Of a DNA stretch of 4,596 nucleotides, positions 1 to 4,596 are shown one piece after another. Every line of letters starts with the position of its first letter. The stretch's first letter is position 1. The notes beneath the pieces were generated by a model, which did no database searches, was not told where the DNA came from, and saw nothing but the letters and a program-made list of their open reading frames with translations. The translations under genes and the position numbers were made by a program. Source of the DNA: a virus (lineage: Duplodnaviria; Heunggongvirae; Uroviricota; Caudoviricetes); the IMG/VR virus record IMGVR_UViG_2695420426_000010. One strand, given 5' to 3'.

Positions 1-2
1 AT

Positions 3-6
3 GGAG
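3..6 (+). promoter_or_regulatory. Shine-Dalgarno-like ribosome binding site for J
   Basis: GGAG at 3..6 with an 8-nt spacer to ATG at 15; an in-frame TGA at 9..11 immediately precedes the start. Confidence 0.6.
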
Positions 7-14
7 CATGACGA

Positions 15-3000
15 ATGGGTAAAGGCAGCAGTAAGGGGCATACCCCGCGCGAAGCGAAGGACAACCTGAAGTCCACGCAGCTGCTGAGTGTGATCGATGC
101 CATCAGTGAAGGGCCGGTTGAAGGTCCGGTGGATGGATTAAAAAGCGTGCTGCTGAACAGTACGCCGGTGCTGGACAATGAGGGGAATACCAACATCTCC
201 GGCGTCACGGTGGTGTTCCGGGCAGGTGAGCAGGAGCAGTCACCGCCGGAGGGATTTGAATCCTCCGGCTCCGAGACGGTGCTGGGTACGGAAGTGAAAT
301 ATGACACGCCGATCACCCGGACCATCACGTCGGCAAACATCGACCGTCTGCGCTTTACCTTCGGTGTACAGGCACTGGTGGAAACCACCTCAAAGGGAGA
401 CAGGAATCCGTCTGAAGTTCGCCTGCTGGTTCAGATACAGCGTAACGGTGGCTGGGTGACGGAAAAAGACATCACCATTAAGGGCAAAACCACCTCGCAG
501 TATCTGGCCTCGGTGGTGGTGGATAACCTGCCGCCGCGCCCGTTTAATATCCGGATGCGCAGAATGACGCCGGACAGCACCACAGACCAGCTGCAGAACA
601 AAACGCTCTGGTCGTCATACACCGAAATCATCGATGTGAAACAGTGCTACCCGAACACGGCACTGGTCGGCGTACAGGTGGATTCGGAGCAGTTCGGCAG
701 CCAGCAGGTGAGCCGTAATTATCATCTTCGCGGGCGCATTCTGCAGGTGCCGTCGAACTATAATCCGCAGACGCGGCAATACAGCGGTATCTGGGACGGA
801 ACGTTAAAACCGGCATACAGCAACAACATGGCCTGGTGTCTGTGGGATATGCTGACCCATCCGCGCTATGGCATGGGGAAACGTCTTGGTGCGGCAGATG
901 TGGATAAATGGGCGCTGTATGTCATCGGCCAGTACTGTGACCAGTCGGTGCCGGACGGCTTTGGCAGCACGGAGCCGCGCATCACCTGTAATGCCTGGCT
1001 GACCACACAGCGCAAGGCGTGGGATGTGCTCAGTGATTTCTGCTCGGCGATGCGCTGTATGCCGGTATGGAACGGGCAGACGCTGACGTTCGTGCAGGAC
1101 CGACCGTCGGATAAGGTGTGGACCTATAACCGCAGTAATGTGGTGATGCCGGATGATGGCGCGCCGTTCCGCTACAGCTTCAGCGCCCTGAAAGACCGCC
1201 ATAATGCCGTTGAGGTGAACTGGATTGACCCGGATAACGGCTGGGAGACGGCGACAGAGCTTGTGGAGGATACGCAGGCCATTGCCCGTTACGGTCGTAA
1301 CGTCACGAAGATGGATGCTTTTGGCTGTACCAGCCGGGGGCAGGCACACCGCGCCGGGCTGTGGCTGATTAAAACAGAAGGGCCGGTTGAAGGTCCGGTG
1401 GATGGATTAAAAAGCGTGCTGCTGAACAGTACGCCGGTGCTGGACAATGAGGGGAATACCAACATCTCCGGCGTCACGGTGGTGTTCCGGGCAGGTGAGC
1501 AGGAGCAGTCACCGCCGGAGGGGTTTGAATCCTCCGGCTCCGAGACGGTGCTGGGTACGGAAGTGAAATATGACACGCCGATCACCCGGACCATCACGTC
1601 GGCAAACATCGACCGTCTGCGCTTTACCTTCGGTGTACAGGCACTGGTGGAAACCACCTCAAAGGGAGACAGGAATCCGTCGGAAGTCCGCCTGCTGGTT
1701 CAGATACAGCGTAACGGTGGCTGGGTGACGGAAAAAGACATCACCATTAAGGGCAAAACCACCTCGCAGTATCTGGTCTCGGTGGTGGTGGATAACCTGC
1801 CTCCGCGCCCGTTCAGTATCCGGATGCGCAGGATGACACCGGACAGCACCACAGACCAGCTGCAGAACAAAACGCTCTGGTCGTCATACACCGAAATCAT
1901 CGATGTGAAACAGTGCTACCCGAACACTGCACTGGTCGGCGTACAGGTGGACTCGGAGCAGTTCGGCAGCCAGCAGGTGAGTCGTAATTATCATCTTCGC
2001 GGGCGCATTCTGCAGGTGCCGTCGAACTATAACCCGCAGACGCGACAATACAGCGGTATCTGGGACGGAACGTTAAAACCAGCATACAGCAACAACATGG
2101 CCTGGTGTCTGTGGGATATGCTGACCCACCCGCGCTACGGCATGGGGAAACGTCTTGGTGCGGCGGATGTGGACAAATGGGCGCTGTATGTCATCGGCCA
2201 GTACTGCGACCAGTCAGTGCCGGACGGCTTTGGCGGCACGGAGCCGCGCATCACCTGTAATGCGTACCTGACCACACAGCGCAAGGCGTGGGATGTGCTC
2301 AGTGATTTCTGCTCGGCGATGCGCTGTATGCCGGTATGGAACGGGCAGACGCTGACGTTCGTGCAGGACCGACAGTCGGATAAGGTGTGGGCCTATAACC
2401 GCAGTAATGTGGTGATGCCGGATGATGGCGCGCCGTTCCGCTACAGTTTCAGCGCCCTGAAAGACCGCCATAATGCCGTTGAGGTGAACTGGATTGACCC
2501 GGATAACGGCTGGGAGACGGCGACAGAGCTTGTGGAGGATACGCAGGCCATTGTCCGTTACGGTCGTAACGTCACGAAGATGGATGCCTTTGGCTGTACC
2601 AGCCGGGGGCAGGCACACCGCGCCGGGCTGTGGCTGATTAAAACAGAACTGCTGGAAACGCAGACCGTGGACTTCAGCGTGGGCGCAGAAGGGCTTCGCC
2701 ATGTGCCGGGCGATGTCATTGAAATCTGTGATGATGACTATGCGGGTATCAGCATCGGCGGGCGCGTGCTGGCGGTAAACAGCCAGACCCGGACGCTGAC
2801 GCTCGACCGTGAAATCACGCTGCCATCCTCCGGTACCATGCTGATAAGCCTGGTTGACGGAAGTGGCAATCCGGTCAGCGTGGAGGTTCAGTCCGTCACC
2901 GACGGCGTGAAGGTGAAAGTGAGCCGTGTTCCTGACGGCGTTGCTGAATACAGCGTGTGGGGGCTGAAGCTGCCGACGTTGCGCCAGCGCCTGTTCCGCT

Positions 3001-4596
3001 GTGTGAGTATCCGTGAGAACGATGACGGCACGTATGCCATCACTGCCGTGCAGCATGTACCGGAAAAAGAAGCCATCGTGGATAACGGGGCGCACTTTGA
3101 CGGCGACCAGAGCGGCACGGTGAATGGTGTCACGCCGCCAGCGGTGCAGCACCTGACTGCCGAAGTCACCGCAGACAGCGGGGAATATCAGGTGCTGGCG
3201 CGCTGGGACACGCCGAAGGTGGTGAAGGGGGTGAGCTTTATGCTTCGCCTGACCGTGGCAGCGGATGACGGCAGTGAGCGGCTGGTCAGCACGGCCCGGA
3301 CGACGGAAACCACATACCGCTTCACGCAACTGGCGCTGGGACGGTACACGCTGACAGTCCGGGCGGTAAATGCCTGGGGACAGCAGGGCGATCCGGCGTC
3401 GGTATCGTTCAGGATTGCCGCACCGGTAGCACCGTCGCGGATTGAGCTGACGCCGGGCTATTTTCAGATAACTGCCACGCCGCATCTTGCGGTTTATGAT
3501 CCGACGGTACAGTTTGAGTTCTGGTTCTCGGAAACGCGGATTACCGATATCAGGCAGGTTGAAACCACAGCCCGCTACCTTGGCGCGGGGCTGTACTGGA
3601 TAGCCGCCAGTATCAATATCAAACCGGGCCATGATTATTACTTTTATATCCGCAGTGTGAACACCGTTGGCAAATCGGCATTCGTGGAGGCCGTCGGTCG
3701 GGCGAGCGATGATGCGGAAGGTTACCTGGATTTTTTCAAAGGCAAGATAACCGAATCCCATCTCGGTAAAGAGCTGCTGGAAAAAGTTGATCTGACGGAG
3801 GATAACGCCAGCAGACTGGATGAGTTTTCGAAAGAGTGGAAGGACGCTAACGATAAATGGAATGCGATGTGGGGCGTCAAAATTGAGCAGACCAAAGACG
3901 GCAAACATTATGTCGCGGGTATTGGCCTCAGCATGGAGGACACGGAGGAAGGCAAGCTGAGCCAGTTTCTGGTTGCCGCCAATCGTATCGCGTTTATTGA
4001 CCCGGCAAACGGGAATGAAACGCCGATGTTTGTGGCGCAGGGCAACCAGATATTCATGAACGACGTGTTCCTGAAGCGCCTGACAGCCCCCGCCATTACC
4101 AGCGGTGGCAGTCCTCCGGTATTTTCCCTGACATCAGACGGAAAGCTGACCGCTAAAAATGCGGATATCAGTGGTAGTGTGAATGCGAACTCAGGAACGC
4201 TCAACAATGTCACGATTAACCAGAACTGTACGATTAAGGGCATGCTGGAGGCGACCCAGGTCAGAGGGGATTTCGTTAAAGCTGTATCAAAAGCCTTCCC
4301 GAAAAAAGTCGGTACGTGGGGTAACACGGAAACACCAGACGGTACGGTTACAGTCACCATCAGCGATGATCATAACTTTGACCGCCAGATTATTATTCCG
4401 CCCATTATTTTTAACGGTATAGCGTATGACGATCCGGGGAGCGGAAATAACCCGGGAGGCACGCGATACACGGGTTATGGTTTTGAAGTTCGCAAAAACG
4501 GCGTATTAATCGCATCCAGAGAAACTAAAGGTGCCATTCCCGGTAGTTACAGTGCAGTTATTGATATGCCTAGTGGTGGTGGTAGCGTCACTCTGG
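15..4596 (+). CDS. J: Lambda-like tail tip / host specificity protein J (central tail fibre), 3'-partial, containing an internal in-frame tandem duplication of residues 33-455
   Basis: Hand translation of the frame starting at ATG 15 gives [168 protein letters not shown]..., which I recognise from memory as near-identical to the N-terminus of phage lambda gpJ. Downstream segments ([62 protein letters not shown]..., ...[124 protein letters not shown]...[15 protein letters not shown]) also match lambda J in the same order. I found no in-frame stop anywhere from 15 to 4596 by hand translation, and a TGA at 9..11 closes the frame just upstream, so ATG 15 is the first start. GGAG at 3..6 sits 8 nt upstream of the ATG. 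The gene runs off the 3' end of the window, which is why the ORF track does not list it. Confidence 0.93.
111..1379 (+). repeat. Direct tandem repeat copy 1 (1269 bp, J codons 33-455)
   Basis: Sequence from 111 (gggccggttgaaggtccggtggatggattaaaaagcgtgctgctgaacag...) to 1379 (...ggctgtggctgattaaaacagaa) recurs at 1380..2648 with a period of exactly 1269 bp (3 x 423), so the J frame is preserved. The duplicated antisense ORFs in the track (431..631 vs 1700..1900; 628..816 vs 1897..2085) show the same 1269 offset. Confidence 0.95.
1380..2648 (+). repeat. Direct tandem repeat copy 2 (1269 bp, second copy of J codons 33-455)
   Basis: About 97-98% identical to copy 1 by my hand comparison (about 30 substitutions, no indels noticed). 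It ends at ...ctgattaaaacagaa (2646..2648 = gaa) and is followed by ctgctggaaacgcagaccgtg (LLETQTV), the normal continuation of J. Confidence 0.95.
3132..3698 (+). other. Two tandem fibronectin type III-like (Ig-like beta-sandwich) domains within J
   Basis: Two consecutive segments of about 95 aa with FN3-like character: [98 protein letters not shown] and [91 protein letters not shown]. Each has a conserved Trp near its N-terminal strand, a Tyr-containing strand, and a tyrosine corner-like motif (TYRF / YYFYIRSVN). FN3 domains are known in lambda J. Boundaries are approximate. Confidence 0.5.
4204..4596 (+). other. Divergent C-terminal receptor-binding (host-range) module of J, 3'-partial
   Basis: Up to ...[15 protein letters not shown] the protein tracks lambda J closely. 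From about 4204 it reads [131 protein letters not shown], only distantly similar to my recollection of the lambda C-terminus. Composition becomes visibly more AT-rich with rarer codons (ata, aga, cct, agt), e.g. attattattccgcccattatttttaacggtatagcg. The start coordinate is approximate. Confidence 0.55.

What the first reader, a model, noticed from the sequence alone, without database searches (positions are those of the whole stretch)
1371..1388. Novel duplication junction with 3-bp microhomology
The junction reads aaaacagaa|gggccggtt, encoding ...[16 protein letters not shown].... Both parental contexts carry gaa immediately before the breakpoint (agtgaa|gggccg at 105..116, and acagaa|ctgctg at 2643..2654). 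Joining at a 3-nt microhomology, with no long homology at the breakpoint, fits illegitimate or microhomology-mediated recombination or replication slippage. The same short-overlap signature can also appear in chimeric assembly joins, so the junction needs direct read support.
Basis: seen in the sequence. Interest (0 to 1): 0.35.

Follow-up and report, generated by a model that had tools for sequence, protein, structure and literature searches.

The report
Scaffolding artefact, not a real duplication
The apparent in-frame duplication in this Shigella sonnei phage tail-tip gene (J) is an assembly artefact: two contigs from two different prophage copies of the gene were placed end to end, and the public record has an unresolved base (N) exactly at the supposed junction.

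Summary
The window is the whole 4,596-bp contig CXFB01000232.1 of a Shigella sonnei Illumina draft (GCA_001248565.1). That draft was built with Velvet, SSPACE and GapFiller. It encodes a lambda-type tail tip protein J.

The 1,269-bp in-frame tandem repeat is present as described (108-1376 and 1377-2645). Four results show that the junction was never sequenced:
- The deposited record differs from the window at one base only. Position 1376 is N in the record, and the window has A.
- All 30 differences between the two copies are the differences between two J alleles, A and B, seen as single-copy genes in sister isolates.
- The phase between A and B flips reciprocally inside a 106-nt stretch that is identical in both alleles.
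- The left piece ends one base before an A/B polymorphic site (1376). The right piece starts one base after another (107).

Four other over-long J genes in public drafts show the same pseudo-duplication, and their joins lie on a single N. The junction is absent from every collection searched.

Verdict: this is a false scaffold join of two co-resident prophage alleles. The GAA "microhomology" is chance. It is not a real feature, and its interest is very low.

The parts
1..14 (+). End of the I-J intergenic spacer, at the left end of the contig
   Evidence: In sister loci the J ATG lies 60 nt after gene I. At sites 8 and 12 the window carries the allele A state.
15..1375 (+). Left assembly piece: the 5' part of the lambda-type J gene (codons 1-453). 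It is mainly allele A, with allele B states at 107, 178, 341-353 and 1105-1319.
   Evidence: It matches S. sonnei L007 and IMG/VR prophages L013-L017 with 10-11 mismatches, all of them at B-state sites. It ends one base before the A/B polymorphic site at 1376.
1376..1376 (.). Scaffold gap. This base is N in the deposited record CXFB01000232.1 and was replaced by A in the window supplied.
   Evidence: L093 (the public record) and the window differ at this one position only, and it is the record's only N. In this assembly pipeline, contigs joined by read pairs get a gap of N (PMC5320598).
1377..4596 (+). Right assembly piece: J gene from nt 94 to about nt 3313. It is allele B except for an allele A patch at 2374-2588.
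   Evidence: It has 5 mismatches in 3155 nt to the single-copy J of sister isolates L094 and L095. Over 2646-3945 it has 0 mismatches to B and 195 to A. It starts one base after the A/B polymorphic site at unit position 107.
108..1375 (+). 'Copy 1' of the pseudo-duplication, which is the overlap of the left piece with the right piece in gene coordinates
   Evidence: 97.6% identity to 1377-2645.
1377..2645 (+). 'Copy 2' of the pseudo-duplication
999..1104 (+). A 106-nt stretch identical in alleles A and B, inside which the phase switches reciprocally. Copy 1 goes from A to B here, and copy 2 goes from B to A at the matching stretch 2268-2373.
   Evidence: Site-by-site table and phase strings.

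Best explanation
The junction is a false scaffold join. Shigella sonnei carries several lambdoid prophages or remnants whose J genes are about 95-98% identical.

Shown:
- The two pieces match two different J alleles, A and B.
- There is an N at the join.
- Each piece ends next to an A/B polymorphic site. The left piece stops at 1375, just before site 1376 (G in A, A in B). The right piece starts at J nt 94 (window unit position 108), just after site 107 (C in A, T in B).
- The assembly came from a Velvet, SSPACE and GapFiller pipeline.

Inferred:
- In the short-read assembly of isolate ERS024603, alleles A and B formed a chain of bubbles.
- Isolated SNP bubbles were collapsed, and phase was lost across identical stretches.
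- Extension of both pieces stalled where the two alleles disagree.
- Read pairs falling in the shared or mis-phased sequence then linked the two pieces.
- SSPACE placed them in series, GapFiller could not close the gap, and one N remained.

Because the two pieces overlap by 1,269 nt in gene coordinates, the scaffold reads like an in-frame tandem duplication. The frame is preserved by chance (1 in 3). The true genome most likely has two separate single-copy J genes.
For: 1. The window is the whole contig CXFB01000232.1 (4,596 bp) of GCA_001248565.1. Its 1,527-aa product, WP_216078219.1, is on record from one contig only.
2. The record has N at 1376 and is otherwise identical to the window. A lone N falling within 1 nt of the repeat boundary by chance has a probability of about 7e-4.
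3. All 30 copy-to-copy differences equal the A/B allele differences. At sites 254-998 copy 1 is A and copy 2 is B. At sites 1105-1319 copy 1 is B and copy 2 is A.
4. Allele B is a normal single-copy J on sister-isolate contigs. Protein P0124 is listed on 36 contigs, and L094 and L095 are 55-kb examples. Allele A is found in L007, in L008 segments (100% identity) and in IMG/VR prophages.
5. Both piece ends abut A/B polymorphic sites. There are 39 such sites in 1,400 nt, so the joint chance is about 8e-4.
6. The assembly is listed in the supplement of Page et al. 2016. The paper says that joined contigs get an N gap and that SSPACE and GapFiller 'can lead to false joins'. GapFiller applies a 0.7 majority rule at allelic differences and closes a gap only with an overlap of at least 10 nt.
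7. The same anatomy recurs in other drafts, with joins on a single N: L007 position 8982, L090 positions 2694 and 4092, and L091 position 4185. In every case the copies are diverged, at 91-99% identity.
8. The junction is absent from 5,426 complete E. coli genomes, INPHARED phages, GTDB representative genomes, IMG/VR and JGI metagenomes.
Against: - I could not inspect the reads (ERR039524), so the absence of junction-spanning reads is inferred from the unresolved N, not observed.
- The steps that led SSPACE to link the two pieces are reconstructed, not shown.
- A single N could in principle be an ambiguous base call inside a real junction.
- The join preserves the frame and shares GAA with both parental contexts. 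Both are compatible with chance (1/3 and about 1/64).
Confidence: 0.95

Rival explanations
1. The tandem partial duplication is real. Illegitimate, microhomology-mediated joining between two co-resident or co-replicating lambdoid phage genomes (allele A at J nt 1362-1365 joined to allele B at J nt 94) produced a J gene of about 1,560 codons. The N is only one uncalled base next to a true junction.
For: - The frame is preserved, and GAA is shared by both parental contexts.
- J genes do undergo real illegitimate rearrangements: four different internal deletions of J occur in complete E. coli genomes.
- No reads were examined.
Against: - The only N in the contig sits at the join.
- Both breakpoints fall next to A/B polymorphic sites. 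Assembly extension predicts this, and biology does not.
- Both copies are reciprocal A/B mosaics.
- The pipeline ran 120 GapFiller iterations and did not close the gap, although a real, read-supported junction should close readily.
- The junction is seen on one contig only, in a highly clonal species with hundreds of sequenced isolates.
- Four analogous joins in other drafts lie on N.
Confidence: 0.03
2. Replication slippage or unequal sister-strand exchange duplicated a segment within one J gene, and the copies later diverged by mutation.
For: A short direct repeat (GAA) lies at both ends of the unit.
Against: - All 30 differences coincide with the two alleles already present in sister isolates, and none is private to either copy.
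- In a broader sample of 30 distinct alleles, both states segregate at 22 of the 30 sites.
- A 1.27-kb tandem repeat would be unstable to homologous recombination long before it accumulated 2.4% divergence (general knowledge).
- There is an N at the join.
Confidence: 0.005
3. The join is an artefact, but the reciprocal A/B phase switch at 999-1104 is real. A crossover or gene conversion between the two prophage J genes in this isolate made true A-left/B-right and B-left/A-right recombinant genes.
For: - Recombination between co-resident lambdoid prophages is common (general knowledge).
- The switch is exactly reciprocal.
Against: - The left piece has four further switches at isolated SNPs (phase string AABBABBBA...BBBBB).
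- At sites 178 and 341-353 the A state is missing from both copies. That looks like bubble collapse and not like crossing-over.
- All five A-like loci and both B loci examined keep the unswitched phase.
Confidence: 0.1

Closest known systems
False joins and pseudo-duplications made by short-read scaffolders and gap closers (SSPACE and GapFiller in the Sanger pipeline; Page et al. 2016, PMC5320598; Boetzer and Pirovano 2012, PMC3446322)
   Same: - A leftover N lies at the join.
- The two pieces come from near-identical repeats (prophage genes).
- The piece ends lie at allelic branch points.
- The assembly is listed among those produced by that pipeline.
- The same pattern occurs in other drafts (L007, L090, L091).
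   Different: Nothing material. The only unusual aspect is that the join is in frame, so annotation pipelines accepted it as one long protein (RefSeq WP_216078219.1).
Bacteriophage lambda tail tip / host specificity protein J (gpJ, TipJ family)
   Same: - Domain order is FNIII-A_GpJ, Phage-tail_3, Ig_J, Ig_J_second, Phage_Tail_Tip, Ig_GpJ_C.
- The gene lies after the tail genes L, K-like peptidase and I, and before lom, in sister loci.
- Each piece is about 95-98% identical to thousands of E. coli and Shigella J genes.
   Different: The apparent second FNIII-A_GpJ and Phage-tail_3 block is not a property of the protein. It is the second allele's contig.
Real microhomology-mediated tandem duplications or illegitimate recombination in E. 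coli and lambdoid phages
   Same: Superficially there is a tandem repeat with only 3 nt shared at the novel joint.
   Different: - The joint was never sequenced (N).
- The copies are two pre-existing alleles.
- The breakpoints coincide with allelic SNPs.
- There is no independent occurrence.
Real internal rearrangements of J in decaying prophages
   Same: The same gene is involved. Complete E. coli genomes contain J genes with internal deletions: J 1-550 joined to 1258, 1-191 to 1146, 1-184 to 795, and 1-181 to 878.
   Different: Those are deletions in finished genomes, annotated as pseudogenes. None shares this junction or its reciprocal.

Membership tests
Scaffolding false join across a repeat | An unresolved gap character at the join in the deposited sequence | tested here: met
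   The record has N at 1376. It is the only N and the only difference from the window.
Scaffolding false join across a repeat | The assembly was made with a scaffolder or gap closer that inserts N between linked contigs | tested here: met
   CXFB01000001-377 is listed in the supplement of PMC5320598, which describes a Velvet, SSPACE and GapFiller pipeline.
Scaffolding false join across a repeat | Each side corresponds to a separate, normally arranged locus in related genomes | tested here: met
   The right side is the single-copy allele B of L094 and L095, with 5 mismatches in 3155 nt. The left side is allele A of L007 and L013-L017, with 10-11 mismatches.
Scaffolding false join across a repeat | Piece ends lie at points where repeat copies diverge | tested here: met
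   The left piece ends at 1375, with an A/B SNP at 1376. The right piece starts at unit position 108, with an A/B SNP at 107.
Scaffolding false join across a repeat | No reads span the join | not testable with these tools
Real microhomology-mediated tandem duplication | A contiguous, base-called novel junction | tested here: not met
   There is an N at the junction.
Real microhomology-mediated tandem duplication | Copies derive from one template, so they are identical or differ by private mutations | tested here: not met
   All 30 of 30 differences are A/B allele states, and neither copy has a state absent from both alleles.
Real microhomology-mediated tandem duplication | The junction is found again in related isolates or independent assemblies | tested here: not met
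   The junction gave no true match in E. coli genomes, phages, genome contigs, viral contigs or metagenome contigs. The only metagenome hits were two chance matches. The protein is on one contig.
Lambda gpJ / TipJ tail tip protein (identity of the gene) | The gpJ Pfam domain set in canonical order | tested here: met
   Precomputed Pfam hits on the product match those of normal J proteins.
Lambda gpJ / TipJ tail tip protein (identity of the gene) | Position in the tail module: tape measure, M, L, K, I, J, lom | tested here: met
   The sister loci L094 and L095 show the upstream genes, and L096 and L097 show the downstream genes. The window itself holds only J.

The most novel reading that the evidence does not exclude
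The isolate really carries an in-frame A/B hybrid tandem duplication of the first 423 residues after residue 31 of the tail tip protein J. That region covers the N-terminal FNIII-A_GpJ and Phage-tail_3 domains. The N would then be an uncalled base beside a true illegitimate joint between two prophage alleles.
Probability: 0.03. Interest if true: 0.3.

Novelty: not a real feature. Interest (0 to 1): 0.03.

Why it matters
Biologically it does not matter, because there is no evidence for a duplicated J gene.

It does matter for data hygiene in two ways:
1. The window given to the first-stage reader had the record's N silently replaced by A. That removed the one character that would have flagged a scaffold gap. 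Any junction-type finding from this scan should be checked against the original record for Ns.
2. In-frame false joins of prophage J alleles have entered public protein databases as apparently intact giant tail proteins. Examples are WP_216078219.1 here and SJA44810.1 (P0003) in another S. sonnei draft. They can mislead studies of tail-fibre domain shuffling or gene duplication.

Tried and rejected
- **Exact and degenerate junction searches** in five collections. I found nothing real. The two metagenome hits were unrelated chance matches.
- **Two-piece E. coli hits covering at least 80% of the junction query.** They looked like possible related rearrangements. They turned out to be four different internal deletions of J in cryptic prophages, none of them this junction or its reciprocal.
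- **A two-parent illegitimate recombination model, or duplication followed by gene conversion.** I considered these after finding that 22 of 30 differing sites are standing polymorphisms. I dropped them once the N and the allele assignment were found.
- **A de Bruijn k-mer model for the breakpoints** (piece end = last SNP + k-1). It was not needed, because the ends lie directly next to SNPs, which fits base-by-base extension stalling.
- **Mapping the duplicated segment onto a gpJ structure, or predicting a structure.** I did not do this, because the duplication is not a property of the protein.
- **Look-up of P0128** found no record. One literature search failed on a term-length limit.

Full report
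**What is in the window**

From position 15 (ATG GGT AAA...) a single open frame runs to the end of the window. It encodes a lambda-type tail tip / host specificity protein J. Thousands of E. coli and Shigella J genes match each half at about 98%. The product carries the gpJ domain set: FNIII-A_GpJ, Phage-tail_3, Ig_J, Ig_J_second, Phage_Tail_Tip and Ig_GpJ_C.

**Check of the observation**

- The tandem repeat is real in the window as supplied. Positions 108-1376 and 1377-2645 have a period of 1269 nt, which is 423 codons in frame.
- The copies are not identical. They differ at 30 sites (97.6% identity): 22 silent single-base changes and 8 bases in 7 codons that change the amino acid.
- A 3-nt shared motif at a join is within chance expectation, at about 0.05 for 3 nt or more at a random blunt join (my calculation).

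**Is the junction seen anywhere else?**

No.
- A 201-nt query across the junction never matched as one piece in 5,426 complete E. coli genomes or in 50,697 phage records.
- The 29 E. coli records that covered at least 80% of the query were two-piece hits. The four I inspected are internal deletions of J in decaying prophages, with other breakpoints.
- The exact 31-mer is absent from GTDB representative genomes and from IMG/VR.
- A degenerate version found only two unrelated chance matches in JGI metagenomes.

**Origin of the differences between the copies**

- Against 30 distinct J alleles from IMG/VR prophages, both states segregate in the population at 22 of the 30 differing sites. The differences are therefore standing allelic variation, not mutation after a duplication.
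- This already excludes simple slippage on one template.

**Analogues in public data**

A protein search with the whole ORF put several abnormally long J proteins on top, each with a different in-frame internal duplication. I fetched their DNA.
- Every one has the window's anatomy: an abutting tandem pair whose copies are 91-99% identical.
- Four joins in three loci lie exactly on a single N: L007 position 8982, L090 positions 2694 and 4092, and L091 position 4185.
- Another has a non-templated base at the join (L092 position 3945).
- Another (L008) has an 11-nt overlap.
- Several of these contigs also carry further partial J or lom segments in series.

These are scaffold joins of overlapping contigs from different J alleles.

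**Source of the window**

- An exact look-up of the 1,527-aa product found it on one contig only: CXFB01000232.1, 4,596 bp, of Shigella sonnei assembly GCA_001248565.1 (RefSeq protein WP_216078219.1). The window is therefore that whole contig.
- The public record and the window differ at exactly one base. Position 1376 is N in the record ('attaaaacNgaagggccgg') and A in the window.
- The record's only N thus lies at the supposed junction, which has a chance of about 7e-4.

**Allele assignment**

- Sister S. sonnei isolates carry a normal single-copy J, allele B. It is found in L094 and L095 on 55-kb contigs, and its protein is listed on 36 contigs. It matches window 1377-4531 with 5 mismatches in 3,155 nt.
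- Downstream, over 2646-3945, the window has 0 mismatches to B and 195 to A.
- Window 1-1375 matches another allele, A, with 10-11 mismatches. Allele A occurs in S. sonnei L007 and in IMG/VR prophages L013-L017. It is also present at 100% identity in segments of L007 and L008.
- All 30 copy-to-copy differences are A/B differences.
  - At sites 254-998, copy 1 is A and copy 2 is B.
  - At sites 1105-1319, copy 1 is B and copy 2 is A.
  - This is a reciprocal phase switch inside the 106-nt identical stretch 999-1104.
- The left piece also carries B states at the isolated sites 107, 178 and 341-353. The phase strings are AABBABBBA(x24)BBBBB for the left piece and B(x29)AAAAABB for the right piece.
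- This is what short-read assembly of two co-resident repeats about 98% identical produces: bubble collapse and loss of phase.

**The breakpoints**

- Gene positions 107 (C in A, T in B) and 1376 (G in A, A in B) are themselves A/B polymorphic sites.
- The left piece ends at 1375, one base before site 1376. The right piece starts at unit position 108, one base after site 107.
- With 39 A/B sites in 1,400 nt, the chance that both ends abut such a site is about 8e-4.
- Base-by-base extension that stops where the reads disagree explains both 'breakpoints'. No biological model predicts this.

**Pipeline**

- CXFB01000001-CXFB01000377 is listed in the supplement of Page et al. 2016 (study ERP000182, sample ERS024603, run ERR039524).
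- The paper describes Velvet, then SSPACE, then 120 iterations of GapFiller. It says that joined contigs receive a gap of N, and it warns that these greedy tools 'can lead to false joins'. Its 299 S. sonnei assemblies averaged 405 contigs (PMC5320598).
- GapFiller applies a 0.7 majority rule at allelic differences. It closes a gap only if the two extensions overlap by at least 10 nt and the fill fits the estimated size (PMC3446322).
- That fits the unclosed N here. It also fits the 11-nt overlap at the N-less join in L008, which looks like a false closure.

**Conclusion**

- The 'novel duplication junction' is a false scaffold join between a contig of J allele A and a contig of J allele B from two prophages of the same genome.
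- The join is in frame by chance, and the GAA 'microhomology' is chance.
- Shown: the N, the allele identity of every differing site, the piece ends at SNPs, the pipeline, and the recurrence in other drafts.
- Inferred: the exact sequence of assembler decisions, and the absence of spanning reads, which I could not inspect.
- I put 0.95 on the artefact and about 0.03 on a real duplication. It is not a real feature, and its interest is very low.
- The useful by-products are the warning that Ns were replaced by A in the scan input, and the observation that such in-frame false joins have been deposited as intact giant J proteins.

Noticed in passing
window 1376 (record CXFB01000232.1 position 1376): The window supplied to stage 1 has A where the public record has N. 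Ambiguity characters seem to be replaced by a base before windows are read, which hides scaffold gaps and can create false junction findings.
   Followed up: yes
L007 8982; L090 2694 and 4092; L091 4185; L092 3945; L008 5324: Other public E. coli and S. sonnei drafts contain in-frame pseudo-duplications of J. They are deposited as intact proteins of 1,408-1,720 aa (P0003/SJA44810.1, P0068, P0061, P0014, P0002). Four of their joins lie on a single N, one has a non-templated base, and one has an 11-nt overlap, which would satisfy GapFiller's 10-nt closure rule.
   Followed up: yes
L089 4626 (scaffold KZ269417.1, protein P0080, 1,295 aa): This is a 489-nt tandem repeat in J with 96.7% identical copies, no N and only about 1 nt of overlap at the join, inside a 1.09-Mb scaffold. 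It is probably the same kind of artefact, but that is not shown.
   Followed up: partly
P0001 (1,882 aa, 'Bacillus thuringiensis Sbt003', 13.8-kb contig) and P0041 (1,370 aa): P0001 and P0041 share the same J sequence outside their repeats, which I recognise from memory as lambda's own. P0001 has a 250-aa unit present four times (join TLRAE|VQFEF), and P0041 has a segment of about 300 aa present twice (join SRIELT|TVDFS). The repeats are identical at protein level. P0001 sits in a Bacillus assembly, so it is presumably lambda DNA contamination. I did not examine the origin of these repeats.
   Followed up: no
L004, L005, L006 (complete E. coli genomes NZ_CP104509, NZ_CP042893, NZ_CP062203): Three different internal deletions of J in cryptic prophages have left breakpoints within 10 nt of each other (window-equivalent positions 181, 184 and 191). 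Their right breakpoints differ (878, 795 and 1146). This may be a local hotspot for illegitimate deletion.
   Followed up: no
P0059 and P0071 (1,301 aa) versus P0049 (1,243 aa): This looks like a natural length variant of J. A 58-aa coiled-coil unit (VAKKSGEQS...RQYVDDK) in the central fibre region is present twice in a protein carried on a 5.35-Mb replicon. It looks like real repeat expansion, unlike the pseudo-duplications above.
   Followed up: no
window 2214-3908 (-) and 3908-4360 (-): Long antisense ORFs of 564 aa and 150 aa inside J are recorded as called genes in the public collection, for this contig and for its sister contigs. They have no Pfam hits and are almost certainly spurious.
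   Followed up: no
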